Virus record (IMG/VR): IMGVR_UViG_3300009031_000221
Span: 192,001-256,000 of that record
Reading direction: 5' to 3' (one strand)
Length of the DNA stretch: 64,000 nt
Source: a virus
Lineage: Duplodnaviria > Caudoviricetes
The position numbers were made by a program, and so were the translations under genes. Below, piece after piece: positions 7,490 through 54,120 of this stretch. Below the pieces are notes generated by a model. That model made no database searches and was not told the DNA's origin. It worked only from the letters and a program-made list of their open reading frames with translations. The first letter of the stretch is position 1, and each line of letters opens with the position of its first letter.

Positions 7490-9670
7490 TTAGTCTTCCC
7501 AGATGATCCAATCTTCAACGGTCTTGGGGCCTACCGAAGCGGTCTTGCGTTCGGCATCTGGATAGCTGGAATGAAGCATCTTGGCGTAGACACAACCCGC
7601 CTGCTTCGAGTGTTCCTTGAGGAACCCTGTGATCAGGTTATGTGCATCCGCCTTGCGGCTATGCAAATCAGATGTCATTGTACCGGCATTTTCACGGACA
7701 CTCGAGCATGCATGAAGCCCTAGGCTCGCGGTCTTGGTGGAATAGCCGTAGAGGCCATACTTCCGTGCAGCAACCTTATCAATGGGCTTACCCACATCGG
7801 CGGCTACGCGGAGTTCTGCCAAGCGCATTGTCGATGCAATCCTAGGGCCAATGCTCTTCATAGCTTCCACGAGGATCTTGGCAGGCAATGAGTTGCTCCG
7901 CTTTGCATGCGCCGCAAGGAATGGTGCAACGTTCTCATCCTTCTTGTAGGCAGCCTTGGCAATCTTCGATGCCATACGGGTCAACTTGCTAATGGAACCT
8001 TCGCAGCAGGACTGAATCGAACGGGTGAAACCGTAGAGTCCTGTAGGGGCAACTGCGGCAACCTTGACTCCATTGATCTCATCCCATTGAGTTTCCAATG
8101 CCGTCTTGAATTGATCCGCATGTTCCTTGTTCTGCTTCTTCCAATCTGCCGCGTCCTCAGGGCTCATGTTTTCCGTTGGGTCGGCGGGCTTACCCTTCTC
8201 GAACTTGCCTTCCTTGGCGTCATTGTCCTCTTCGGATGCACGGAATGGGAATGGTTTACGGCTAGGCTGCTTGGGTGCGGGGCCTTGCTGCGTTTCGGGC
8301 TTCCGGAACCTTGGTAGAAGCGTGACCTTCAATCCAGCCCTACGTCCGACAGCCAGTATTCCAGGGGTGGCTTCCTGAAGTGCCCCCTCAGGAAGCTCTA
8401 GGTGAACAACGGTTTCCCGTTGCAACCCCTGCATTTCCTGACCCCGGGTCAAAGGTGGGCTGTACTCAGGGCTAACCACACGGATAAATCCATCATCATG
8501 CGGAATCCCCTCATCATCCTTGAATGGAAAATCGAAACCCATGAGGTCGTTGATGGTGTCCCGATTGAAAGGCTTGTTACCTACGAATGAAAAGTAGGCA
8601 TGTTCAACTTTGTGCGAATATCCCGCTTCCTTGTGCTTGTCCTTGACAACATCTTTGTACTTCTCGGTATTGGCTTCCCACGCTTTGCATTCCGATTCGT
8701 CCAAATTATCAGGACAACCCTCAGCTAGCATTTCCAATTCCGCAATCGCATCCGAGGCACGTCGATCTTCCAATCCCGGAATCATTGATCCTTCGCCTTC
8801 CTCATCCCGTGGGTCGGCGTAATCAACATCCCCTTCGTTCCAAGTGGCTTCCTTGAACTTATCCTTGTATCTGTCCGTATTGGCTTCCCATTCTTTGCAT
8901 TCGGACTCATCCAAGTTGTCGGGGCAACCCTCAGCCATGAATTCCAATTCTGCGAACTCATCATTTGCCAATCGATATTCCATTCCAGGCATCATAGATC
9001 CTTCCCCTTCCTCATCCCGGGGGTCATCGAACTTGTCGATTTCACCTTCGTTCCAAGTAGCAATAGGGTCCAACTTGTTGGGACCACTATCGCCCTTTGT
9101 ATTTTCATCCCCTGCCTTCTTGCCCTCGTAATACAACGCGGCAAGTCTATTGGCGGCATGATCTTCCGCAGTGAAATACTGTGACGTAGGCATGGTGCAA
9201 CTCTCTGCTCCAGGGTTCTTGTACTTGCAGTAGATTGACCATGCGGTTGCCCAGGCCTTAGCGTCATCATAGTCCGGATTCGATTCCTTGACTTCCTTGA
9301 CGTAGCGCTCAACATCCGCAGGGATGTCCCCAATGGCCAACTTGGAAAGGGCGAAATGTGCTGTATCTACGCTGCCATACTTCGATGATTCATCATGAAT
9401 TTCCAACTTGTCCCAACCTAATTTGGCTACAGCCTTTTGCAGTTTGTCCTCAGCCGTATAGGACGGTTCATCGCCCTTGCCCAAGACGGTGAATTGATAA
9501 CGGTGTTCTTTATCCGCGGCGGTCTTGAACTTGTCCCCATGTAGGTCATTCATTTCCTTCCACTTCTTGGCATCCTCGGGAGACATGTTCTGAGTAGGGT
9601 CGGCGGGAACGCCTTCTTCAAAGCGTGCAATCCGCTCAAGTTCCGTCATCAGGGTGTTGCTGTCATTCAT
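7490..9670 (-). CDS. Acidic repeat-rich mosaic protein, candidate internal virion protein
   Basis: 726 aa; two copies each of PADPTxNMSPEDA, EGCPDNLDESEC and DPRDEEGEGSM modules. Confidence 0.75.
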   Translation of the reverse strand: MNDSNTLMTELERIARFEEGVPADPTQNMSPEDAKKWKEMNDLHGDKFKTAADKEHRYQFTVLGKGDEPSYTAEDKLQKAVAKLGWDKLEIHDESSKYGSVDTAHFALSKLAIGDIPADVERYVKEVKESNPDYDDAKAWATAWSIYCKYKNPGAESCTMPTSQYFTAEDHAANRLAALYYEGKKAGDENTKGDSGPNKLDPIATWNEGEIDKFDDPRDEEGEGSMMPGMEYRLANDEFAELEFMAEGCPDNLDESECKEWEANTDRYKDKFKEATWNEGDVDYADPRDEEGEGSMIPGLEDRRASDAIAELEMLAEGCPDNLDESECKAWEANTEKYKDVVKDKHKEAGYSHKVEHAYFSFVGNKPFNRDTINDLMGFDFPFKDDEGIPHDDGFIRVVSPEYSPPLTRGQEMQGLQRETVVHLELPEGALQEATPGILAVGRRAGLKVTLLPRFRKPETQQGPAPKQPSRKPFPFRASEEDNDAKEGKFEKGKPADPTENMSPEDAADWKKQNKEHADQFKTALETQWDEINGVKVAAVAPTGLYGFTRSIQSCCEGSISKLTRMASKIAKAAYKKDENVAPFLAAHAKRSNSLPAKILVEAMKSIGPRIASTMRLAELRVAADVGKPIDKVAARKYGLYGYSTKTASLGLHACSSVRENAGTMTSDLHSRKADAHNLITGFLKEHSKQAGCVYAKMLHSSYPDAERKTASVGPKTVEDWIIWED
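8660..9075 (-). repeat. About two tandem 210-bp (70-aa) repeats inside the 726-aa ORF
   Basis: AEGCPDNLDESECK...DPRDEEGEGSM(I/M)PG unit recurs with a 70-aa period. Confidence 0.8.
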
Positions 9671-42772: not shown

Positions 42773-44179
42773 CTACGCTTTGAAAGTCAAGATAGGCCTC
42801 ATCTTTGCCACCTTCGACAATATACCCGCCGTTACCTGGGATTGTATCACGGGACCAATGTCCTTGTACGCGGCGGGCGCTTCCTCGATTTTACGCTCAT
42901 ACCGCAATGAAATGCAATCCACACCGTCTAACCCAAGGTTGCCTTCGCGTTTCATGTCCACTCGGGATTGACTTCGACCCGCACCGTGACTTGCCGACAG
43001 CAAGTGTTCTTCCGAACCCAACCCCTTGCAAACATACGATGCTGACCCCATGGACCCAGGAATGAGAAGCCAATCTCCCAGGTTCGCCGGGCAAGCCCCC
43101 TTGCGTTGAATCCATGTCCCCGAATGTTCCAAAGTGATGTTGTGCGGAATGTCTGTAATCATCGGGCACTCCAGGTCGTCCCCGAACACTTGTCGCATTC
43201 TCAATCGGGCAATCTCGGCAATCAACATGCGATTGACCCAGGCATAGTTGACAGCCGTAGCTTCTGCCGTCAAGTAATCCAGTTGACCTTCATCCTCCAG
43301 CAATGGAAACATGTGGCTAGTAGGGAATGGACGCTTGGTTGCTTCCCAGGCCTTACGTGCCCGAGTTTGAGCGTTCTGCCCAACATACAACCCGACGAAT
43401 CGGGAACCCGTATGCGCCATGAACCCGACTTGCCCTACCTTGATTCCCAGGGCATACGCCGCATGCCTATCTAGGATTTCTTCTACGACCTGGAATTCTA
43501 CGAAGTGGTTGCCCCCTCCAATAGTTCCCAACCCGTCATCCCGAATGATCTTGGATCCTATGCCGTCTACCAAGCCTTGAGGGGCGTACTTAACATCTCC
43601 ACGGGCAATGTTTGTGTACTGAACTCGATCACACTCCTCGTGCAACTGCTCAATGCGGGAAGCCTGCGTCATGCCATGCTTCCAACCATCATTGTCCTGG
43701 GCCTCGAGCCACCCAAGTAATCCGTCCGTGAACATCGCCTTTTGGACGCTTACGGTTTGTGCCACATCTCGAGTGCCAAAGAAGTAATCCCCCTTCAGCA
43801 ATTCGACCAAGGCGTCCCGCTTTGCCAGGAACTGATCAATGGTCAAATCCGTGAGGTGCAATCTCATGCCACAGTTGATGTCCGTACCAATGGCTGCCGG
43901 AATCAGAAACTGTGTTTGAACTACGGAACCAATGGCAACGCCCGCATCTCCAGGATGGAAATCCGGTGTGGCACAACATCGAGTGACGCCTTCCAAAGAA
44001 GCCAGATTGGCTAGCTGTAGAAGGGCTTTGTTCTCAACCGGCAATTCGTCTGGAAGCAATACATCCGCATAGGGAAGGTGGTCATGATTGGCAATACGAA
44101 CTTGCCAACCGCCATCGACCTTACGAACATCGAGGCCTTCTTTGACTAGAGCCTTTAGAAGGCGATCGTGATTTGCCAT
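42773..44179 (-). CDS. rtcB: RtcB-family RNA ligase
   Basis: TPDFHPG, GTDINCG, GGGNHF, HTGSR, PHN, RKGA, SHGAGR motifs. Confidence 0.93.
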   Translation of the reverse strand: MANHDRLLKALVKEGLDVRKVDGGWQVRIANHDHLPYADVLLPDELPVENKALLQLANLASLEGVTRCCATPDFHPGDAGVAIGSVVQTQFLIPAAIGTDINCGMRLHLTDLTIDQFLAKRDALVELLKGDYFFGTRDVAQTVSVQKAMFTDGLLGWLEAQDNDGWKHGMTQASRIEQLHEECDRVQYTNIARGDVKYAPQGLVDGIGSKIIRDDGLGTIGGGNHFVEFQVVEEILDRHAAYALGIKVGQVGFMAHTGSRFVGLYVGQNAQTRARKAWEATKRPFPTSHMFPLLEDEGQLDYLTAEATAVNYAWVNRMLIAEIARLRMRQVFGDDLECPMITDIPHNITLEHSGTWIQRKGACPANLGDWLLIPGSMGSASYVCKGLGSEEHLLSASHGAGRSQSRVDMKREGNLGLDGVDCISLRYERKIEEAPAAYKDIGPVIQSQVTAGILSKVAKMRPILTFKA

Positions 44180-44180
44180 G

Positions 44181-44762
44181 TCATGCCAGCCGTGTCACCG
44201 TCAACGGTGTGATTTGAAGGCTGCGCTTGGTGCCCTTGCGGAGGAACTGCTGGACAACGATCGCCATCTGCGATGCCGCGAGTCCGTGGAAGGGCAGGTT
44301 CTCCCCGTCCTCACACGTTGCTTGTCCAGGTGCCCCTTCCTCATCTGGAACGAAGTGCTCATCCCAAACAACCCGGGCAAACGTACCATCCGCCGACAAA
44401 GCGCCATGCAAACATGGGATGCCATTGGGCTGAACGAACCCTTGGATGATGCGGCGTGCCTCTGCATTGTCCGTGCAGTCAATGACTAGCCCTGCGCCTC
44501 CCAGGATGACCTGTACGTTGTCCTTGGTCAGTTGGTGCGGGGTAGCATCGATCTTGATGCCGAACAGCCCTGCCATCGCTTGCTGAAGCCCCAGTGCCTT
44601 GTTGCGTGCCTTGCTCAGCCCCGTGTGGAACTGAGACATGATGTTCTTCTGCTCGACGCGATCGAAGTCAACAACCTTCAGCCCTTGCTTCCAGTTGCGA
44701 CCGAAGAGAACCAGGTGAGAACCCAATGCCCCTACGCCAACGATTACGATTTGTCCCGCCAT
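44181..44762 (-). CDS. ThiF/E1-like adenylating enzyme; start MAGQIV
   Basis: IVGVGALGS, VVDFDRVEQKN, VIDCTDN; candidate catalytic Cys in ATCED. Confidence 0.85.
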   Translation of the reverse strand: MAGQIVIVGVGALGSHLVLFGRNWKQGLKVVDFDRVEQKNIMSQFHTGLSKARNKALGLQQAMAGLFGIKIDATPHQLTKDNVQVILGGAGLVIDCTDNAEARRIIQGFVQPNGIPCLHGALSADGTFARVVWDEHFVPDEEGAPGQATCEDGENLPFHGLAASQMAIVVQQFLRKGTKRSLQITPLTVTRLA

Positions 44763-44851
44763 GATTGATACCTCAGTTGGGCGCATAGGCACCATGAATC
44801 AGGTCATCCGTGACCTTGCATCATCTACGCGGAATCATCAGGAAGTAAGCC

Positions 44852-47164: not shown

Positions 47165-47461
47165 TCACCCGAAGGCTAGATCACAACCAAACGGCGTCTT
47201 GGGGCGCAGGAAGATGCGGTTGTCCGGAACTTCATCGTTGGACGGGAAGCGATCCACAACGAAGTCCGCGAAGTTCGCGTTCTGGTCGGCGGGAATACCC
47301 GGGATGCCGTTCTGCACAGCCTCCTGAGCGAGGCGGCGAAGATCATCCGCGCCAAGGTCGAAGGGAACAGCCTCAACGAGATCTCCGTTGTTGCCTGCCC
47401 AAGTGATGTTGAAACGTGCCTCGTTCTGAGCAAAAAGACGGTCTGCCATATTGTCCTCCAT
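47165..47461 (-). CDS. Candidate ubiquitin-like (beta-grasp) protein
   Basis: About 95 aa; ends IFLRPKTPFG-CDLAFG; directly downstream of the JAB gene. Confidence 0.55.
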   Translation of the reverse strand: MEDNMADRLFAQNEARFNITWAGNNGDLVEAVPFDLGADDLRRLAQEAVQNGIPGIPADQNANFADFVVDRFPSNDEVPDNRIFLRPKTPFGCDLAFG

Positions 47462-47465
47462 CTAT

Positions 47466-47870
47466 CTAGCGGGAAATCGCCCGCAGTTCTTCTAGGTCTT
47501 CCAGAATCAGTTCTCGCGGAAACCCCATGGCTTCCCCGTTGCATGTATCCAAGGCCCCATAGCCTTGGTGTTCTTCGTCGTAGTACATGAAGACGAACGT
47601 CTTCACATCTGTGAAAGTTGCGATAGGCCACATCAGGTTTCGCCCGAGGCCTAGTTCAATCGCACGGAACGTAGTCACGTCCGTATATGAACACCAGGAC
47701 TCCCCATCCCACGGATGAGTATGAGCCACCCCGCCAAGGTTATGGCGATTATCCCAGATGATTTCCCACAGGTTGCGGGAGTCCGGAATAGCTCCGCCGG
47801 TCCGACCCTTTGGCACATGCCAATGGAGGGTCTTACCTGCCTTGTCGAATACCAATGCGTTCTCCATCAT
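47466..47870 (-). CDS. JAB/MPN metallopeptidase
   Basis: GVAHTHP..CSYTD matches HxH-x7-SxxD. Confidence 0.75.
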   Translation of the reverse strand: MMENALVFDKAGKTLHWHVPKGRTGGAIPDSRNLWEIIWDNRHNLGGVAHTHPWDGESWCSYTDVTTFRAIELGLGRNLMWPIATFTDVKTFVFMYYDEEHQGYGALDTCNGEAMGFPRELILEDLEELRAISR

Positions 47871-47899
47871 ATCGGAACCTCGTTACAGTGACGTTGCAT

Positions 47900-49000
47900 G
47901 CCCCCATGCATTACCCGCAGGCCGGAGTATCATATTTCACTCCAGGATCCCCACAAACGTATGGGTTTCGAACCCTCCGTCACGTTCATTCGCCCTTTCG
48001 GGGCTCGAATCATATGCACGGTTAGATACCACCCTATCCGTGCAAATCCAGTGAGGGGGCTCTTGGTAAAGTCCCCCCAACCCTGGTAACTCCCTATGTT
48101 ATTGGGGCCGGTTCGGGTTCCGGCACTTCACTGCAGCTAACCGCAGCGCCCAAATTCGATTGTGGGGCTATCACGGCTTACCCACCAACGCACTCCATCC
48201 GTTCTTGTGTGAGTTCTCCCACAGAAGTACCGATTTGAGGCTGGGTTCCGGTTATCCCGGTCACACTCATGGAAGGCGTTCCATGCCAGCTTAGGCCCGA
48301 TCCCGGCCATACGTGCAGCGTGTAGGTTCGGTCAACCCCACGTTTCAATGAGCGCTGGTAGCTTAGGTCTCTACGTTGCAGTCACGCTGCAATCCGCCTA
48401 CCAGTCTTACCTAGACCTTAGACCCCATCGTATTTTGGACACGGTTTCCCGTGTCACACACTTCGTCCACACCTATTGAGCTAGGATAGAAGCTAACTCC
48501 CGATGTTATTGGGGACGGTACGGGTTCCGTGATTTCGCTGAGGGGTTTAGCCTGCAACGCCCAATATTGTTGACAGGACGTACCCATCATCGTATTTGCC
48601 CCCTGTTTGAGCTTATGTCATCCGGGGGCGCAATGACGTAATTTGCTCTTTACCTATACCCAGTTGTCTCCCGTAGGAGATCGTATTTATGGCTGTCCCG
48701 AATGTAAAACTAGGACTATCGCCAGCCACATGCGACCCTTTTTCCCACCCACTACGGTGAGTTCACCTCGTCAGAAGGGCTCCGACTAGGGGCAGTGAAC
48801 CCCTGGTATGTTGCCTCATACGTTATGAGGTCGTTCTGGATGGAGGCTAGGGATCACACCCCCCTAGCATGTCCCGCCCACGTTCGACGGGTCTATTCAA
48901 CGGCGGTCGCCGTGCCCCAACCCTAGTAGACAACCCCGCTCGAGGGTGTCGTCGATTGTTCATATGAATCGGACTGCCAGCCCTGTTCGGCTCCGCAAAG
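47900..49000 (-). ncRNA. Candidate large structured ncRNA, copy 1
   Basis: No convincing ORF; many hairpins, internal repeats and covarying stems. Confidence 0.55.
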
Positions 49001-49009
49001 GGGTGCCTA

Positions 49010-49700
49010 CTAGGGGCCAGTGATCCCGACCCATATGTCCCCGACTGGGAGCTACCCAGCCGGATGGCTTATGCATGCCTGCATTCGCCAAAGTTCTATC
49101 GTGTTGGGCACTGACCGGGATGGACGGGCCTCACACCCGCAACCACCCCGTCTTGCCGACGGGTCCTCTGCAAATCTCTTTTCCCTCCAGGTAGCCTCAC
49201 CTTCGGTACTAAGAAATCCGGGATCCTCCTGAACGGGCCTTGGCCAAGGTTTGCCGTTAATTCGGATTGCCTACTTGCAGCTACACGCCGGGTCAATGCC
49301 CAACAGTTCAAGGCAGAACAGGATCCAGAAGCAACCGGTTTGCCCTCCGGAGGATCCTCACAGTGTTACTCTCTAGCGGGGGTTCGATCTTTTGGACGGG
49401 CAAGTCCTCAACCGCCGTACCGCCTCGGACAAAGTGGGGCTTTCAGTTCAGGGCACATTTTCAGCCCCTACCCTATCTTCCGCACCCTGTTCTGCCGTGA
49501 ACATGTTCTGCCGAGAGTGAAATGAGGGAGCTTTACGGCATCCACACGGTATTGGCTCCTTTTACAGGGAGCACGAATAGGGCACTGCAGACCCTTTGAC
49601 ACCGCAGTAAAAAGCATCTCCCGTCTGCCACGACCCCTTGCGGGCCACTTCACTCTCGGCAGAACTTCTAGAGCCTGAGGCGGTTCGCAACCGCCCTCTT
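49010..49700 (-). ncRNA. Three consecutive end-paired structured domains of 160-205 nt
   Basis: Terminal stems 49102-49118/49288-49305, 49312-49322/49486-49496 and 49505-49524/49646-49665; promoter motif at 49707-49732. Confidence 0.55.
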
Positions 49701-49734
49701 GTTCCATCTACGCGGCAGCCCCTGAAGGTAAGCC

Positions 49735-50480
49735 CCGCCACGGTCGTATTTGCCTCCCTGAGTGGGCTTCCAGCATCCGGGAGGCATGATGGATAGAAAA
49801 CGCCCTTTACCTATACACGGTAATGCCCCACGTCTGCGGCATCGTTCTGCTGTGGCACTAGGGCTGCGTCCCTAGCATGGCTCGCGTCCACGTTCGACGG
49901 GCCACTACAGCAAGAGTGCTGTAACCACGGCTTGGTTGACCATCCCCGTGCGGGGGATATCAGTCGTATTTGCGTGGCAACGGGTTGGCTACCGTATCAA
50001 TCCTGGCCATTGCAGACCCGAATCCCGCCATCGCAATTACCCCCACCACATGGGCGACGGCTGCGATACGGTGCCTCGGTTTAACGCCGAGGCTCGATCC
50101 ACACACTGTTTAGGGCTTGTGTCCGCACAGGACGGCCCTTCGTTCTTTGACCAGCCCAGGGTTCGTCCTGAACCTCCGCCCTGTTGGGCGGCGTGCTTCT
50201 TACACCATCTGATCGCAACTAGGCATCTTCGGGTAGCGAGCCAGAAGATGTAGGTGCTGGTTTCGAACCCAACACCTTGTTCCCCATCGTTCGGGGGGAA
50301 GGGGCCGAAGCCCCCGCCCCAAGTCCTTGGATTTGCCCAACCCCCATTACACTGCTTCAGCTACCAAAGCCCGCTTTGCAGTCCCGACCTTCAAGGGTGT
50401 CGTCCCCTAACATCCTTTACGCGATTTGGCATGGACACAGAGTCGAACCCTGTTCGGAAAGCTCGCAGCCTCCCGTCCAT
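49735..50480 (-). ncRNA. Candidate large structured ncRNA, copy 2 (partial paralog of copy 1)
   Basis: Shares blocks with 48590-48891; promoter motif at 50487-50512. Confidence 0.55.
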
Positions 50481-50531
50481 GATCCATCTACGCATGAACC
50501 ACCTGAAGTAAGCCCAGGGTTCAGATCTTTT

Positions 50532-50639
50532 TCAGTCGTCGTCATCCCAGTCATCCCGGTCGTCCCGATCAACGCCCCAGTCGGGGTTCGCACCAGGACC
50601 AGGGTCGCCCGCAACGTGACGCCACACAACCAGTTTGCC
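50532..50639 (-). pseudogene. Displaced duplicate C-terminus of the 53122-54120 gene
   Basis: Encodes GKLVVWRHVAGDPG plus an acidic tail, same peptide as 53161-53202 with synonymous differences. Confidence 0.8.
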
Positions 50640-50668
50640 ACCACGTTGGACATCCAACTTTCGGATAT

Positions 50669-51919
50669 TTACAGGCTTTCCCGAACCAATGGATCCCCGC
50701 CGCAGACTTTGCATGGCACCAGCGTCTTCAAGGATTCTTCGGTGACGGTGACGTTTTGTTTGGTGCCTATGGTTGCCACGTATCGGCATTCAGGAGCGTG
50801 AACAACCGTGGAATGCGATGATTTTACCACTAGATTTCCGATGATGTCAGCCAAGGTCAAGCGGGCTTCCACTTTTACCAAGTTGGTGATCTGACGATCT
50901 TCATCATCCAACCCAAGGATCTCATTGATCAGATCTGTGCTTCGCGGGTGGCCGTACCTAGCAGCTTTGCGTTGTTGGATTTCATTCAAGTCTTTCCACA
51001 TGCCCATGCCGGATGCTTTTGCCGATGCTTCTAGTCTGTTGTAAGTGTCCAGCACGAAAGGTTCGATTGGGAACACGTCTAAGACTTCTGCACACCCTTC
51101 TTCCAGAAGGGTTTCACCCATCAATCTTCCATCCACTAGGATGTGGGCGGTCAAGCGTCCATACCGATCGTAGACCCATCCTTGTTGAACTTGTTCGGCA
51201 TCCAAGCGGATGGAAATGTTGGTGGCTTGACGAAGGATGCGTTCCGCCATGTGGGTTGCCTGCAATCCGTAGTGCCCAATGGATTTGGTTGGGTGGCACG
51301 TCTCCGGGCAGTCAAAACCAACAAGGCGAACCTTGAAGTTTTCACCCGTGGATGGGATAGCCACCCGAACCGTATCGCCGTCAATGATGTCCGTCAAAGA
51401 ACAGGGGACGGCCTTTGTTCCAAATTTCGGGGAAGGCCATTTGTTCTGGGTCACAAGCCCCAAACATTCCTGCTTGTACTTGGCAGTCCGCTCTTGAACT
51501 TGTGCATCCCGATCTTTTCCGATGTCGTCCCCAAACATGGTGGCTACCGTAGCCACTAGTGGTTTCTGTGCAAACAGCTCTGCCCTACGGACCTGGTTTT
51601 CCCGCATCTTGGTTAGGTACTTGCGAGCCCTCGATGAATTTCCGTTTGTGATTGCTTGGATTTGACGCGATGTGTTGTTACCCAACAATGGTTCTAGATC
51701 GTCCCGTGCAATACCAAGACCTGCAAGTACGGTTTGTGTCGCTCGTTCTTGCTGTTGCAGTTGCCGACCAAAGGCTTTCAGGTCTTCCCCTTTGGCTTTC
51801 AGGTCTTCTTCCACACCACGCATTCGCTTCCCCCATGTTGTGAACGGGATCAGGTGTGGCAAAACCAAAAGCACAAGGATCCCAAGCCAAGCTAGTGTTC
51901 CCCATGTTGCGTATTCCAT
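50669..51919 (-). CDS. Membrane-anchored thermonuclease (SNase family)
   Basis: N-terminal TM helix; IDGDTVRV, RLVGFDCPE, DRYGRL. Confidence 0.85.
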   Translation of the reverse strand: MEYATWGTLAWLGILVLLVLPHLIPFTTWGKRMRGVEEDLKAKGEDLKAFGRQLQQQERATQTVLAGLGIARDDLEPLLGNNTSRQIQAITNGNSSRARKYLTKMRENQVRRAELFAQKPLVATVATMFGDDIGKDRDAQVQERTAKYKQECLGLVTQNKWPSPKFGTKAVPCSLTDIIDGDTVRVAIPSTGENFKVRLVGFDCPETCHPTKSIGHYGLQATHMAERILRQATNISIRLDAEQVQQGWVYDRYGRLTAHILVDGRLMGETLLEEGCAEVLDVFPIEPFVLDTYNRLEASAKASGMGMWKDLNEIQQRKAARYGHPRSTDLINEILGLDDEDRQITNLVKVEARLTLADIIGNLVVKSSHSTVVHAPECRYVATIGTKQNVTVTEESLKTLVPCKVCGGDPLVRESL

Positions 51920-51961
51920 GACATTCGTCCTTGCGGGGCATCATCCGTGCCCATGTCTTAT

Positions 51962-53125
51962 CTACGCGGGGCGGACAGAAAGTAAGCCTTTGGCATCAAC
52001 TTTCCGTGAAGTTAACGCTTCCTCGGGTGCCATACCTCGTGCTAGACGACTTCGTATCCAAGCAGCACTTAGGTCCACTTCCTCGATCCAGGCTGCCAAG
52101 CACTGAGTCCTACCCCATGCCTTGATCATCAGGTTATCGTTTCGGTTACGCATCTGTTCCTGATTTGTGGCCCAACGAACATTCCCTGGGTGATACCCCT
52201 TATCGTTGTCTATTCGGTCAAGAGTGTGTTTCGCAGATGGGGCATGTCCAACGTGTTCCAGGAAAGATGCAAAGCCGCCTGGGGATTTCCACCCTTCATG
52301 TAGGGTTCGTTTTCCATCACGGCATCTCCGCACCATCTGATACCAATGTTTGTATTCCTTGGATGCCGATGGAGTATGTGCCCGTGAATCTCTACCTTGT
52401 ATGGATTCAGGCGTAGGGTCTCTACGAAGATTCGGGGTGGACACAATTTGTTCTGGAGTCCAGCCAAGGGCCAACCTTGCAGCCAAAGTGTTCGTTTTGA
52501 TGCCGATCTCTTCGGCCCATGCTGTCAGACTTTGCGTCCTCCCGAGGGCTTGTAGAAATCTGGTTTTGGATGTGTTTCTAGCCTGTTCTTTAGGGGATGC
52601 CCAACGGACATTCCCTGGCACATACCCCAAGTTATTGTCAATCCTATCCAGGGTGTTGTGCCCTTTTGGAGACACACCTACATGATCCAGAAAGGATACA
52701 AATCCGTCATGCCCAACCCACTCAGGGTGTACGACAACACCTTTGCCACCGTATTCTGGGTAGGCTGTAGAGGTGTGCCTGAGACATCGATCCAGCATGC
52801 CCTGCCAGGATTTGTATTCCGGGGTGTCTGACTTCCCATGTGTGCTTTCCCAACCGGCCGCCTGGAGTCTCTCAGGTGACCAGCAACCACATGAGGTGGT
52901 GTTCCCGGATTGAATGTGGTCCAAACGGGTTACGAATTGCCGTCCACAGTCGCATTGCACCGTGACTTCGTATCTCTTTGTCCCTGCTCTCCTGATGGAT
53001 TCACTCAGGACAAGAATCCTGCCAAATCGTTCGCCTTTCCATGATTTCTTGTTTCTCATGTGGACAAGGTAACACAATCTCCCTTTCGTGTCCAACATTC
53101 GCACAATCAAATATGTGGCGTTCAA
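51962..53125 (-). CDS. Homing-type endonuclease with two tandem HNH-like modules; likely start MRNKKSW at 53059
   Basis: Two copies of TLDRIDN..GY.PGNVRWA; CDCG..SCGC. Confidence 0.85.
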   Translation of the reverse strand: MNATYLIVRMLDTKGRLCYLVHMRNKKSWKGERFGRILVLSESIRRAGTKRYEVTVQCDCGRQFVTRLDHIQSGNTTSCGCWSPERLQAAGWESTHGKSDTPEYKSWQGMLDRCLRHTSTAYPEYGGKGVVVHPEWVGHDGFVSFLDHVGVSPKGHNTLDRIDNNLGYVPGNVRWASPKEQARNTSKTRFLQALGRTQSLTAWAEEIGIKTNTLAARLALGWTPEQIVSTPNLRRDPTPESIQGRDSRAHTPSASKEYKHWYQMVRRCRDGKRTLHEGWKSPGGFASFLEHVGHAPSAKHTLDRIDNDKGYHPGNVRWATNQEQMRNRNDNLMIKAWGRTQCLAAWIEEVDLSAAWIRSRLARGMAPEEALTSRKVDAKGLLSVRPA

Positions 53126-54120
53126 TCCTCCCAGTCATCTTGATCCCAATCACCACGTCCTCCTGGATCCCCTGCGACATGTCTCCAAACTACGAGTTTT
53201 CCTTCCCGCAGTGCCTCCTGAATTACCGCCGGGAGTGACTCAAGCGTCAGAAGGGTATCGCCTTTTTGCCCTGTGGCATGATCCGTCAAACACACCCCAG
53301 CATCCACGATGCGAAGGTTCATGTCGCATACGCATTCCAACCTACGGGTCATGAAACGGTACTGCACAACCATCTCACCCTTGTTGAAGGCCGGACGGCT
53401 ATCCAGCAATTCCGCACCCGACACTGCCAACGCAGCCCTTGCAGCCGCAGGAAAGTCATGTGCCGCCATTGCACGCCGGCCGGCCCCCGTGCCCATGTTC
53501 TTACGTGCCTCAACCATCTTCTCTTCGGCAATGCGCTTCTTCTCTGCTTCATCCCGAAGGCGCCGACATTCCTTTTCCCAGGCCTCCGCCTTGAGCCGTT
53601 GCGTGGTCAACCAACGGAAAGCAAGATCAAGTGCCGGTGTCACGGCTTGGATATGATCCAGGTTTTCCAATCGATCCTGATATGCCGCCGTGACTTCCAT
53701 CTCAGGCCCTTGCGGGAACTCCTGACGGATGTAACACAGGGCATTTGTTTGAGGGATACGAACCGCAACGGCACGGCTGAACCGATCCATGCCGGCTTCA
53801 ACGAGGAACACTGGAATGGTTTGCTCAATCAACTTGTCAGGGTTGGGATCAACGCGGGCTTGATCCGAGATCAATCGATCCCCTACAAGGTAGCCGCGCA
53901 CAACCTTGAGGCCTTGCTCGAAGTCTGGATCGGGATCAACCTGTGTACGTCCAACCAACGTAGCATCCCTGCCACCTGAGGTCTTGAACTTGTACCATCC
54001 GTGTTCCGGTGGGAGACGACCCTGAATATCCCACGTGCGGTCACGCCAGTAGACCTTGCGGCCCCCAGTCCATGGAAGCGTTCGCTCCGTGTCCGTTTCT
54101 AGTAGGTCTTGCCATCCCAT
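53122..54120 (-). CDS. Conserved hypothetical protein with a candidate E2-like C-terminal domain
   Basis: IVDAGVCLTD..TLESLPAVIQEAL resembles the UBC GxICL motif and following helix; inference. Confidence 0.5.
   Translation of the reverse strand: MGWQDLLETDTERTLPWTGGRKVYWRDRTWDIQGRLPPEHGWYKFKTSGGRDATLVGRTQVDPDPDFEQGLKVVRGYLVGDRLISDQARVDPNPDKLIEQTIPVFLVEAGMDRFSRAVAVRIPQTNALCYIRQEFPQGPEMEVTAAYQDRLENLDHIQAVTPALDLAFRWLTTQRLKAEAWEKECRRLRDEAEKKRIAEEKMVEARKNMGTGAGRRAMAAHDFPAAARAALAVSGAELLDSRPAFNKGEMVVQYRFMTRRLECVCDMNLRIVDAGVCLTDHATGQKGDTLLTLESLPAVIQEALREGKLVVWRHVAGDPGGRGDWDQDDWED

What the first reader, a model, noticed from the sequence alone, without database searches (positions are those of the whole stretch)
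47900..50480. 2.6-kb ORF-poor block with two paralogous large ornate RNA candidates
Seen: blocks 48831-48891 and 49842-49901 share UCGUUCUG, a CUAGGG/CCCUAG hairpin with a different loop, and CCACGUUCGACGGG (plus-strand reading). CTTTACCTATAC occurs at 48648 and 49804. TCGTATTT (AAAUACGA in the RNA) occurs five times (48428, 48590, 48681, 49744, 49964). An internal repeat 48087-48152 / 48494-48563 shows a covarying hairpin (CCGG/CCGG versus ACGG/CCGU) with a conserved AACCCG loop that could pair with several GGGUU tracts. Two phage promoter motifs (49707, 50487) point into the block. Established: GOLLD and ROOL are large structured RNAs found near phage tRNA clusters. Inference: two related large RNAs, either divergent members of those classes or a new class.
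Basis: partly seen in the sequence, partly recalled or inferred. Interest (0 to 1): 0.72.

Follow-up and report, generated by a model that had tools for sequence, protein, structure and literature searches.

The report
Mosaic structured-RNA island in huge phage
A 2.6-kb gene-free stretch of a 536-kb groundwater phage is a real, conserved island of a dozen folded non-coding RNA modules with no known family, sitting between the phage's Ro60-like and RtcB RNA-repair genes; it is a mosaic of separate modules, not simply two sister giant RNAs.

Summary
The block (47871-50513, minus strand) is non-coding. Alignments with six related huge phages show indels that are mostly not multiples of three and no codon periodicity, whereas the adjacent JAB gene is strongly periodic. 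Two genome-typical phage promoters fire leftward into the block. No minus-strand terminator-like site or further promoter precedes the JAB gene. Rfam gives nothing, even at E<=10, so it is not GOLLD, ROOL, OLE, HEARO or Y RNA. The block is a mosaic of at least 12 modules. They include a 5' multi-hairpin domain, three abutting "end-paired" domains (MFE z=-9.8) and a three-way-junction module "X" present twice. There are also a twice-present two-hairpin module and a twice-present "T-unit" ending in hairpin-CAAAUACGA. Relatives carry different subsets at the same site, with gaps from 0 to 2.7 kb, and several modules show compensatory changes. I read it as a polycistronic array of structured RNAs that also forms the JAB leader, possibly partnering the Ro60-like and RtcB genes. 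Function is untested and no RNA data exist. Other first readers of this scan flagged the same stretch.

The parts
50486..50513 (-). Promoter P1. Read on the minus strand it is GCTTACTT, 12 nt, GCGTAGAT.
   Evidence: It scores 36.3 bits in a weight matrix built from about 100 genome copies of the motif. It is homologous to promoters at the same place in L125, L127 and L132.
50426..50479 (-). tRNA-like mini-element at the start of the P1 transcript. It has a 7-bp end stem and two hairpins, one with a GGGUUCGAC T-loop-like sequence, and it ends in GCCA. It is an insertion specific to the window.
   Evidence: Fold of -25.4 kcal/mol, z=-2.6. It is absent from the aligned relatives. The Rfam tRNA model does not hit it.
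50100..50425 (-). 5' domain of unit A, made of many hairpins. It contains a window-specific insertion of about 150 nt (about 50150-50297) that carries T-loop-like hairpins.
   Evidence: Conserved in L125, L132, L130 and L127. RNAalifold predicts 44 pairs, 9 of them with compensatory changes. One hairpin loop swaps GCAA/GAAA for UUCG.
49972..50099 (-). Middle part of unit A, unlike the middle domain of the relatives.
   Evidence: No blastn match to relatives. The alignment breaks down here.
49848..49971 (-). AAAUACGA site 1 (49964-49971) followed by module M3, copy A. M3 comprises hairpins, then a hairpin with the invariant loop GAACGUG, then the CUAGGG hairpin.
   Evidence: 75% identical to L133 over 128 nt. 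RNAalifold on 3 copies predicts 30 pairs, 6 compensatory.
49744..49822 (-). T-unit, copy A: GUAUAGGUAAAG, then a hairpin containing GGAUG, then CAAAUACGA (site 2).
   Evidence: 90% identical to L125 and L132. In L132 it ends 12 nt before the JAB start codon.
49706..49733 (-). Promoter P2, with one mismatch in the upstream box.
   Evidence: Weight-matrix score of 32.2 bits. It is followed by the leader hairpin at 49676-49697, which relatives have after their first promoter.
49505..49665 (-). End-paired domain D1, with a 20-bp closing stem.
   Evidence: Inverted repeat I2, 95% complementary. The MFE fold keeps it as a closed domain. Found only in the window.
49306..49502 (-). End-paired domain D2, with a closing stem of about 23-26 bp whose sequence is conserved.
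   Evidence: Homologs in L125, L131 and L133. 41 pairs, 14 with compensatory changes, 95.7% of cells paired, and 0 of 500 shuffles reach the observed score. One copy per genome.
49102..49305 (-). End-paired domain D3, with an 18-bp closing stem.
   Evidence: Inverted repeat I4, 89% complementary. MFE fold. Found only in the window.
48921..49101 (-). Domain D4, a set of hairpins partly closed by the 49015/48921 pairing.
   Evidence: Homologous to L125 and L133. Inverted repeats I3 and I5.
48831..48891 (-). Module M3, copy B.
   Evidence: Repeat families D6 and D10. 97% identical to L133 over 30 nt. Alignment.
48583..48688 (-). T-unit, copy B, bounded by AAAUACGA sites 3 (48681-48688) and 4 (48590-48597).
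   Evidence: Repeat families D4, D8 and D15. Fold z=-2.65. Alignment.
48425..48566 (-). Module X, copy a. It has a three-way junction (P1-P3), a variable hairpin P4, hairpin P5 and CAAAAUACGA (site 5).
   Evidence: Covariance model R1 scores 110.9 bits. Covariation counts.
48330..48424 (-). Module M8.
   Evidence: 78% identical to L130 over 98 nt.
48160..48215 (-). Leader-type motif R (ACAAGAACGGAUGGAGUGC ... GUGGGUAAGCCGUGAUAGCCCCAC).
   Evidence: 86% identical to L131, where it directly follows a promoter. A 26-nt core is 100% identical to sites before the HNH gene in L127, L129 and L130.
48002..48155 (-). Module X, copy b.
   Evidence: R1 scores 123.2 bits. These are the only two X copies in the genome.
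47888..47983 (-). Last end-paired domain (GUGACG ... CGUCAC), directly before the JAB ribosome-binding site.
   Evidence: Fold (z=-1.6, which is weak). No homolog found.
47466..47870 (-). JAB-type peptidase gene. It has no promoter of its own, so it would be transcribed from P2 or P1.
   Evidence: 77 homologs found. Strong codon periodicity. The next promoter is at about 47086.

Best explanation
The block is a clade-specific island of structured non-coding RNA. It was inserted between a ~340-aa gene and the JAB peptidase gene, inside the phage's gene string Ro60-like ... JAB - small protein - HNH - ThiF/E1 - RtcB. Two phage-type promoters (P1, P2) start minus-strand transcripts. With no minus-strand terminator-like site and no further promoter, these should run on into JAB.

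The RNA is a chain of at least 12 independently folding modules: a tRNA-like mini-element, a multi-hairpin 5' domain, three to four abutting end-paired domains, module X twice, M3 twice, the T-unit twice, and a leader-type motif. Related phages carry different subsets, copy numbers and orders of these modules at the same site.

Shown here: non-coding character, promoters, strand, conservation, compensatory base changes and modularity.

Inferred: the long transcripts are cut into several stable RNAs of about 90-200 nt. RNase III-type cleavage would act in the 18-26-bp closing stems and RNase P/Z at tRNA-like elements. The recurrent 'hairpin-CAAAUACGA' would be the junction. The last module also serves as the 5' leader of JAB.

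More speculative: the RNAs act as scaffolds, decoys or substrates for the neighbouring Ro60-like and RtcB proteins, as Y RNAs do in the bacterial rsr-Y RNA-rtcB operons.
For: 1. Non-coding. In alignments with six relatives, 139 of 154 indels are not multiples of 3, and substitutions show no 3-periodicity (p=0.09-1). The adjacent JAB gene gives p=1e-5 to 1e-36. No long minus-strand frame opens in any stop-reassigned code.

2. Promoters and strand. P1 and P2 score 36 and 32 bits. There is no other site above 12 bits between about 47086 and 49706 and no terminator-like site on the minus strand. The minus strand of 48900-49700 folds at -369.8 kcal/mol (z=-9.8), against -307.6 (z=-4.9) for the plus strand. 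GNRA and UUCG loops and G-U pairs read correctly only on the minus strand.

3. Conservation at one site. Six relatives sequenced across the site plus one partial contig (L129), with JAB 64-80% identical, hold a gene-free gap of 0.26-2.7 kb between the ~340-aa gene and JAB. The gaps share collinear pieces with the block.

4. Covariation. Module X has 9 copies, 23 pairs, 6 with double changes and 95% of cells paired, and 0 of 500 shuffles reach the score. D2 has 41 pairs with 14 double changes. The 5' domain has 44 pairs with 9 double changes.

5. Modularity. L132 has only unit A. L125 has unit A, D2, D4 and X. L131 and L133 have D2 and X without the 5' domain. L265 has a tRNA with an insert in the same slot.

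6. Junction motif. A[AC][AC]UACGA after a hairpin is 16-fold enriched in the gaps.

7. Context. RtcB is clear (Pfam 2.7e-89). The 632-aa protein at 55951-57849 has Ro60/TROVE structures as its best full-length fold matches (E 2e-8 to 1e-6).
Against: There are no transcript data, so processing, discrete RNA species and even promoter activity are inferred. Only 6-8 related sequences exist, and they are related by descent, so the shuffle controls overstate significance. D1, D3 and the middle of unit A have no homolog at all. No Rfam Y RNA or tRNA model matches. The Ro60-like gene ends 5.4 kb upstream, further than the 4 kb typical of bacterial Y RNAs (PMC4201824). The fold match of the Ro60-like protein has low TM-scores (0.26-0.43). 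Because the last module always abuts the ribosome-binding site of the next gene, a purely cis-regulatory role is not excluded.
Confidence: 0.6

Rival explanations
1. Two (or a few) genuinely large ornate RNAs in the manner of GOLLD, ROOL or OLE. Unit A (P1 to 49744, about 735 nt) and unit B (P2 to about 48583, or on to JAB) would each act as one folded particle, perhaps multimeric. The module shuffling would be the peripheral variation usual in large RNAs.
For: Unit A has a collinear counterpart of about 570 nt in L125 and L132 (77% identity over about 780 nt between those two). The 5' domain and the 3' T-unit are shared with the window. Hairpins are inserted or deleted as in other large RNAs. 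The location in a phage tRNA island matches what is described for GOLLD and ROOL (PMC12286853). Complementary GGAUCC-containing inner loops of D2 and D3 could link those domains (I11).
Against: No long-range helix with covariation ties the 5' and 3' parts of unit A together. The middle of unit A is replaced in the window. D2, X, M3 and the T-unit occur in relatives without the rest of their 'unit'. D1-D3 are closed by their own end stems and abut one another. cmscan finds no GOLLD, ROOL or OLE.
Confidence: 0.22
2. A giant cis-acting 5' leader of the JAB / Ubl-like / E1 / RtcB mRNA. The modules, especially X and the T-unit, would sense a ligand, a protein or an RNA and set translation or stability of the downstream genes.
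For: JAB has no promoter of its own. In relatives the last module ends a few to about 20 nt before the ribosome-binding site of the next ORF. The T-unit does so in L132, and X does so in L125, L127 and L130, where ...CCCAAAUACGA runs straight into AGGA. The T-unit has two mutually exclusive foldings, each with compensatory changes. Motif R is a leader element before the HNH gene in other phages.
Against: No known riboswitch matches. No minus-strand terminator-like site and no conserved structure sequestering the ribosome-binding site was found. More distant relatives express JAB with no gap at all. Most modules lie 0.5-2.5 kb from the start codon, and one promoter unit (A) is followed by another promoter, not by a gene.
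Confidence: 0.13
3. Non-functional debris: decayed tRNA genes, intron or mobile-element remnants, or spurious conservation from recent common ancestry.
For: T-loop-like hairpins and a tRNA-like mini-element are scattered in the block. Homing-endonuclease genes (HNH, LAGLIDADG) lie nearby in the window and in relatives. A 2.5-kb cassette was inserted just upstream. D1 and D3 have no homologs.
Against: Compensatory changes keep helices paired. The T-unit is 90% identical while its flanks are about 75% identical. The folding z-score is -9.8. Promoters are retained. No group I or group II intron matches at E<=10.
Confidence: 0.04
4. Unrecognised small protein genes on either strand.
For: ORFs of 59-174 aa exist, for example 48411-48590 on the minus strand and 50277-50801 on the plus strand. 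A 250-aa ORF was called on the opposite strand in L125. Some AAAUACGA sites are followed by AUG.
Against: No codon periodicity on any phase and frame-breaking indels throughout. The ORFs are not conserved between relatives. The one real small ORF found, in L127 and L130, has no counterpart in the window.
Confidence: 0.01

Closest known systems
Bacterial and phage Y RNAs (YrlA, YrlB, Yrn1, Yrn2) of rsr / Y RNA / rtcB loci (Chen et al. 2014, PMC4201824)
   Same: These are non-coding RNAs encoded on the same strand as a Ro60-type gene, and in some bacteria in one operon with rtcB. Several Y RNAs are made from one polycistronic precursor. They have long stems formed by the 5' and 3' ends, and tRNA-like parts (T-arm, CCA). 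Here the block lies between a Ro60-like gene (fold match) and RtcB. It has end-paired domains D1-D3 and a tRNA-like element ending in GCCA.
   Different: There is no Rfam Y RNA hit. The domains are 161-204 nt, not 80-130 nt. The block starts 5.4 kb from the Ro60-like gene. The GNCGAAN0-1G motif occurs at a rate not clearly above chance. Most modules (X, 5' domain, T-unit) have no Y-RNA counterpart. Binding to Ro60 is untested.
GOLLD and ROOL large ornate RNAs of phages and prophages (Rfam; Kretsch et al. 2025, PMC12286853)
   Same: These are phage-encoded, hundreds of nucleotides long, rich in hairpins, without ORFs, next to tRNA islands, and of unknown function.
   Different: There is no covariance-model match even at E<=10. 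The block shows no single conserved architecture. Instead it is a mosaic whose parts occur independently in relatives. Multimer formation is not testable here.
The tRNA look-alikes with a Y-RNA-like arm at 59295-61702 of the same window
   Same: They lie in the same genome and on the same strand, in the same RNA-rich region near the Ro60-like gene. In relative L265 a tRNA with a ~70-nt insert occupies the very slot of this block.
   Different: blastn finds no sequence similarity between the block and the rest of the genome. The Rfam tRNA model does not hit the block.

Membership tests
GOLLD (Rfam) | Match to the family covariance model | tested here: not met
   cmscan of the whole window at gathering score and of 47400-51000 at E<=10 gives no GOLLD hit.
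ROOL (Rfam) | Match to the family covariance model | tested here: not met
   No ROOL hit. None in the seven relatives' loci either, at gathering score.
GOLLD / ROOL | Phage location near a tRNA island | tested here: met
   The window holds 52 tRNA genes and a tmRNA. This feature is contextual only and not sufficient for membership.
GOLLD / ROOL | Homo-oligomeric RNA cage | not testable with these tools
   This needs native gels or cryo-EM of transcripts (PMC12286853).
Y RNA (YrlA type) | Match to the Rfam Y RNA or YrlA models | tested here: not met
   No hit at E<=10 in 47400-51000.
Y RNA (YrlA type) | Long stem formed by the 5' and 3' ends, enclosing a large internal region | tested here: met
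   D1, D2 and D3 have closing stems of 20, about 23-26 and 18 bp. The D2 stem is kept in 4 phages, 6 of its 23 pairs with compensatory changes.
Y RNA (YrlA type) | Size of 80-130 nt | tested here: not met
   D1-D3 are 161, 197 and 204 nt.
Y RNA (YrlA type) | Encoded within about 4 kb of a Ro60 ortholog on the same strand (PMC4201824) | tested here: inconclusive
   The block is on the same strand. The Ro60-like gene (fold match only, E 2e-8, TM 0.3-0.4) ends at 55951, which is 5.4 kb from P1. A 2.5-kb cassette inserted in between accounts for part of that distance.
Y RNA (YrlA type) | GNCGAAN0-1G motif near the 5' end | tested here: inconclusive
   The invariant 13-mer of M3 contains GUCGAACG, but the motif is expected about 2 times per 2.7 kb by chance and is seen 5 times. 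It does not lie in the end stems of D1-D3.
tRNA | Cloverleaf recognised by ARAGORN or the Rfam tRNA model | tested here: not met
   No tRNA call inside 47871-50513. Only partial T-arm and acceptor-like elements are present.
Riboswitch / cis-regulatory leader | Known aptamer class, or a conserved expression platform (terminator or RBS-sequestering helix) | tested here: not met
   No riboswitch hit except a chance-level Glutamine-II match at 47549-47602, inside the JAB gene and outside the block (E=1.5). No minus-strand terminator-like site. A second ACCGUG after the start codon occurs in L127 only.

The most novel reading that the evidence does not exclude
The block encodes one or more new classes of phage RNA that work with the phage's own Ro60-like ring protein and RtcB ligase. 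It would be an operon-embedded, promoter-driven array of oversized Y-RNA-like, end-paired scaffolds and a new three-way-junction RNA (X). Unit A would be a new ornate RNA of about 570-740 nt. All of this is confined to one clade of groundwater and freshwater huge phages.
Probability: 0.3. Interest if true: 0.8.

Novelty: new variant of a known kind. Interest (0 to 1): 0.62.

Why it matters
Huge phages carry large tRNA and RNA-repair gene sets whose purpose is poorly understood. This island adds several conserved, covarying RNA structures with no family assignment. They are placed exactly between a Ro60-like gene and RtcB, and they are exchanged like cassettes between related phages. If the RNAs are stable products that bind Ro60-like or RtcB proteins, they would extend the Ro60/Y-RNA quality-control paradigm to a viral, multi-RNA form. 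They would also give testable candidates for how huge phages protect or remodel the host RNA pool. If unit A is a single particle, it would be a new large ornate RNA for structural study. If the island is only a leader, it would be one of the longest structured leaders known in a phage.

Tried and rejected
- **Short DNA patterns in IMG/VR.** The 14-mer CCACGTTCGACGGG gave more than 120 chance hits. The two-box pattern gave 3 chance hits in coding DNA. A unit-A pattern gave none. An X-core pattern in GTDB genomes gave none.
- **Other searches for relatives.** blastn against the GenBank phage collection found nothing. Single-protein searches for related loci with the SNase and JAB proteins found nothing.
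- **Model R1 (module X).** Run on 100 sources (the window plus 99 related loci; the remaining loci were not searched), it found only the known clade plus one extra tandem copy in L131.
- **More distant JAB loci.** These mostly have JAB directly after the upstream ORF, so they give no comparative data.
- **Contigs without DNA.** No DNA was obtainable for three contigs that have gaps of 2.7, 1.37 and 0.38 kb.
- **Expression.** No RNA holder is listed among public runs.
- **Reads laid on the block.** Two 2025 freshwater runs gave only four 151-nt contigs about 99% identical to the window, which adds no comparative information.
- **Similarity elsewhere in the genome.** blastn between the block and the rest of the genome, including the tRNA-like array at 59-62 kb, found none.
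- **Paralogy of D1-D4.** Not detectable.
- **GNCGAAN0-1G Ro-binding motif.** Frequency not clearly above chance.
- **CRISPR reading.** The CRISPR-DR37 hit (E=1.3, plus strand, single copy) was rejected as chance.
- **Global fold of unit A.** No long-range helix was supported.
- **Ro60-like protein by sequence.** phmmer against the PDB found nothing. Only the fold search links it to Ro60.
Full report
**Setting.** The window is bases 192001-256000 of a 536-kb virus record, GC 52%. It holds 52 tRNA genes and a tmRNA. Public runs that hold the stretch are groundwater metagenomes.

**Observation.**
- The two 14-mers CCACGTTCGACGGG and the two 12-mers CTTTACCTATAC are the only copies in the whole genome.
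- Five of the genome's 26 TCGTATTT lie in the block.
- No minus-strand ORF exceeds 107 aa, and no stop-codon reassignment opens a long minus-strand frame.

**Promoters and strand.** Listing the genome copies of ATCTACGC showed a genome-wide motif. Read on the gene strand it is ACTTACTTT, about 11 nt, then GCGTAGAT. A short hairpin, a ribosome-binding site and an ATG usually follow.
- A weight matrix built from 100 copies scores the two sites in the block at 36.3 bits (P1, 50486-50513) and 32.2 bits (P2, 49706-49733). The training range is 24.8-48.7 bits.
- No other site above 12 bits lies between about 47086 and 49706.
- No terminator-like site lies on the minus strand.
- Transcripts from P1 and P2 should therefore run leftward through the block into the JAB gene (47870-47466), which has no promoter of its own.
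- The minus strand folds far better than the plus strand. For 48900-49700 it gives -369.8 kcal/mol (z=-9.8) against -307.6 (z=-4.9).
- Stable GNRA and UUCG loops and G-U pairs appear only in the minus-strand reading.

**Known families.** cmscan against Rfam 15 gives nothing in the block at gathering scores. At E<=10 there are only four chance-level hits, none of them GOLLD, ROOL, OLE, HEARO, Y RNA, tRNA, an intron or a ribozyme; one is a Glutamine-II riboswitch match (E=1.5) that lies outside the block.

**Relatives.** Short DNA patterns and single-protein searches in IMG/VR failed. The JAB protein has 77 homologs, many on contigs of 200-520 kb.
- Fetching those contigs showed conserved synteny. 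The order is a VWA/Ro60-like protein, then NUDIX and other genes, a ~340-aa protein, a gap, JAB, a small protein, HNH, ThiF and, where the locus reaches that far, RtcB.
- The gap is 0.26-2.7 kb in the closest relatives (JAB about 64-80% identical). It is absent in most of the more distant ones, where JAB directly follows the upstream ORF.
- The block is therefore an addition specific to one clade.

**Non-coding and conserved.** blastn shows that the block is collinear, in pieces, with the gaps of L125, L127, L130, L131, L132 and L133.
- In these alignments 139 of 154 indels are not multiples of three.
- Substitutions show no 3-base periodicity (p=0.09-1). The neighbouring JAB gene gives p=1e-5 to 1e-36.
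- The periodicity test does not depend on strand, so it also rejects the plus-strand ORFs and the 250-aa ORF called on the opposite strand in L125.

**Anatomy (minus strand, 5' to 3').**
- *tRNA-like element.* After P1 comes a 54-nt tRNA-like mini-element ending in GCCA (50479-50426). It is an insertion found only in the window.
- *5' domain.* The multi-hairpin 5' domain (50425-50100) is shared with L125, L132, L130 and L127. It has 44 predicted pairs, 9 with compensatory changes. One hairpin swaps a GCAA/GAAA loop for UUCG, and whole hairpins are present or absent.
- *Middle of unit A.* This part (50099-49972) has no homolog.
- *M3, copy A.* After the first AAAUACGA site comes M3 (to 49848), shared with L133 and with the second window copy at 48891-48831. 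Its core is a hairpin with the invariant loop GAACGUG next to the CUAGGG hairpin, whose loop varies.
- *T-unit, copy A.* The T-unit (49822-49744) is 90% identical to L125 and L132. In L132 it ends 12 nt before the JAB start.
- *After P2.* A leader hairpin follows, then three abutting end-paired domains: D1 (49665-49505), D2 (49502-49306) and D3 (49305-49102). Their closing stems are 20, about 23-26 and 18 bp.
- *D2.* It is conserved in L125, L131 and L133. The stem sequence is almost invariant while the interior is largely different. It has 41 pairs, 14 with compensatory changes, 95.7% of cells paired, and 0 of 500 shuffles reach the score. Slid controls give 31-50% paired.
- *Remaining modules.* D4, M3 copy B and T-unit copy B (48688-48583) follow. 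Then come module X copy a (48566-48425), M8 (shared with L130) and motif R. Module X copy b (48155-48002) and a last small end-paired domain precede the JAB ribosome-binding site.
- *Motif R.* It directly follows a promoter in L131 and lies before the HNH gene in L127, L129 and L130.

**Module X.** Aligned over 8 copies, it has an invariant helix UUGGG/CCCAA closing a three-way junction. After these come a hairpin P4, whose sequence is completely different between lineages, and hairpin P5. The tail is CCCAAAUACGA.
- A covariance model (R1) recovers all copies at 111-171 bits. It adds one more tandem copy in L131 and nothing in about 90 more distant loci. It finds only the two window copies in the whole genome.
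- Pair counts are 95.4% paired, 6 pairs with changes on both sides, and 0 of 500 shuffles.

**Junction motif.** A[AC][AC]UACGA directly after a hairpin occurs 12 times in 11.8 kb of gaps. That is 16 times the genome rate. In relatives it is usually the last thing before the ribosome-binding site of the next gene. In the window it recurs five times at module borders.

**Modularity.** Relatives carry different subsets of the modules.

| Phage | Modules present at the site |
|---|---|
| L132 | unit A only |
| L125 | unit A, D2, D4, X |
| L130 | 5' domain, a middle domain, M8, X |
| L127 | 5' domain, about 560 nt of unique sequence, X |
| L131, L133 | D2 and X, without the 5' domain |
| L265 | one promoter and a 143-nt tRNA with an insert |

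Paralogy between the window's two promoter units is limited to M3 and the T-unit. D1-D4 are not detectably paralogous. No long-range helix with covariation ties unit A into one fold.

**Context.**
- RtcB (42773-44179) and ThiF (44181-44795) are clear Pfam matches.
- The protein at 55951-57849 has only a weak VWA hit by sequence. Its AlphaFold model has mean pLDDT 79. The best full-length fold matches of the model are Ro60/TROVE structures: 9kop, 2nvo, 1yvp and the Thermus phage phiLo Ro60 9l5y. Their E-values are 2e-8 to 1e-6, but TM-scores are only 0.26-0.43.
- Bacterial Y RNAs lie near Ro60 on the same strand. They can be made from polycistronic precursors, have end stems and mimic tRNA (PMC4201824).
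- GOLLD and ROOL are phage RNAs near tRNA islands (PMC12286853).
- The block resembles both kinds in context and in some architecture, but it fails their model-based membership tests.

**Conclusion.** The finding is real and the RNAs are new. The best-supported reading is a promoter-driven, polycistronic mosaic of independently folding RNA modules that also forms the long leader of JAB. Whether the products are several small RNAs, one or two large ones, or a regulatory leader cannot be settled without transcript data. None exist in the public runs searched.

**Overlap with this scan.** Other first readers flagged the same stretch as 'two tandem giant ornate ncRNAs', 'three adjacent end-paired domains' and 'a second pair of paralogous structured RNAs'.

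Noticed in passing
window 50482-54120 (minus strand): The relatives' ~340-aa gene is continuous. In the window its first ~320 codons are at 54120-53162, while DNA homologous to its last ~40 codons lies at 50645-50532, in another frame (ORF ending ...DDWDDDD*). A 2.5-kb cassette sits in between. It carries a 387-aa ORF (51962-53125) and a SNase-domain ORF (50669-51919) with its own promoter at about 51992. This is an insertion near the 3' end of the gene. Whether it is an intron, an intein or a plain insertion was not resolved.
   Followed up: partly
L265:2098-2240: In a relative whose gap before JAB is only 260 nt, the slot holds one phage promoter and a 143-nt tRNA with a ~70-nt insert (Rfam tRNA, 39.8 bits). 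This is the same kind of insert-bearing tRNA as at 60188-61702 of the window.
   Followed up: partly
window 49744-49822 and 48583-48688: The T-unit can fold in two mutually exclusive ways: GCCUCCC...GGGAGGC, or GGGC-UUCUA-CAUC...GGAUG-UGGAA-GCCC. Both foldings show compensatory differences between copies, so it may be a conformational switch.
   Followed up: partly
window 49221-49232 and 49346-49357: Inner loops of neighbouring domains D3 and D2 are 12-nt complementary (92%). Both contain the palindrome GGAUCC, so a contact between domains or between molecules is possible (I11).
   Followed up: no
whole genome (G000), about 100 sites: Phage-specific promoter consensus: GACTTACTTT, about 11 nt, GCGTAGAT. 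Most copies are followed by a short GC hairpin, often with a GGAUGA-type loop, then AAGGAAC-N5-ATG. Some occur as back-to-back divergent pairs, for example at window 26138/26199.
   Followed up: partly
L127:9771-10004 and L130:5741-6004: A conserved small protein gene of about 77 aa lies between module X and JAB in two relatives, overlapping the JAB start. It has no counterpart in the window.
   Followed up: yes
L125 gap 8680-8795; L132 5300-5430: Between their first and second promoters, relatives have a unit of about 110-130 nt. It starts with the GGUUGCGAACC hairpin and ends in a perfect T-arm (GGUGG-UUCGAUU-CCACC) plus an acceptor-like strand. It is another tRNA-like RNA that Rfam does not recognise.
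   Followed up: no
window 48064-48402 and 50108-50513: Two 2025 freshwater and sediment metagenome runs from other studies hold 151-nt contigs about 99% identical to parts of the block. The same phage lineage therefore occurs outside the source groundwater samples, at very low depth.
   Followed up: partly
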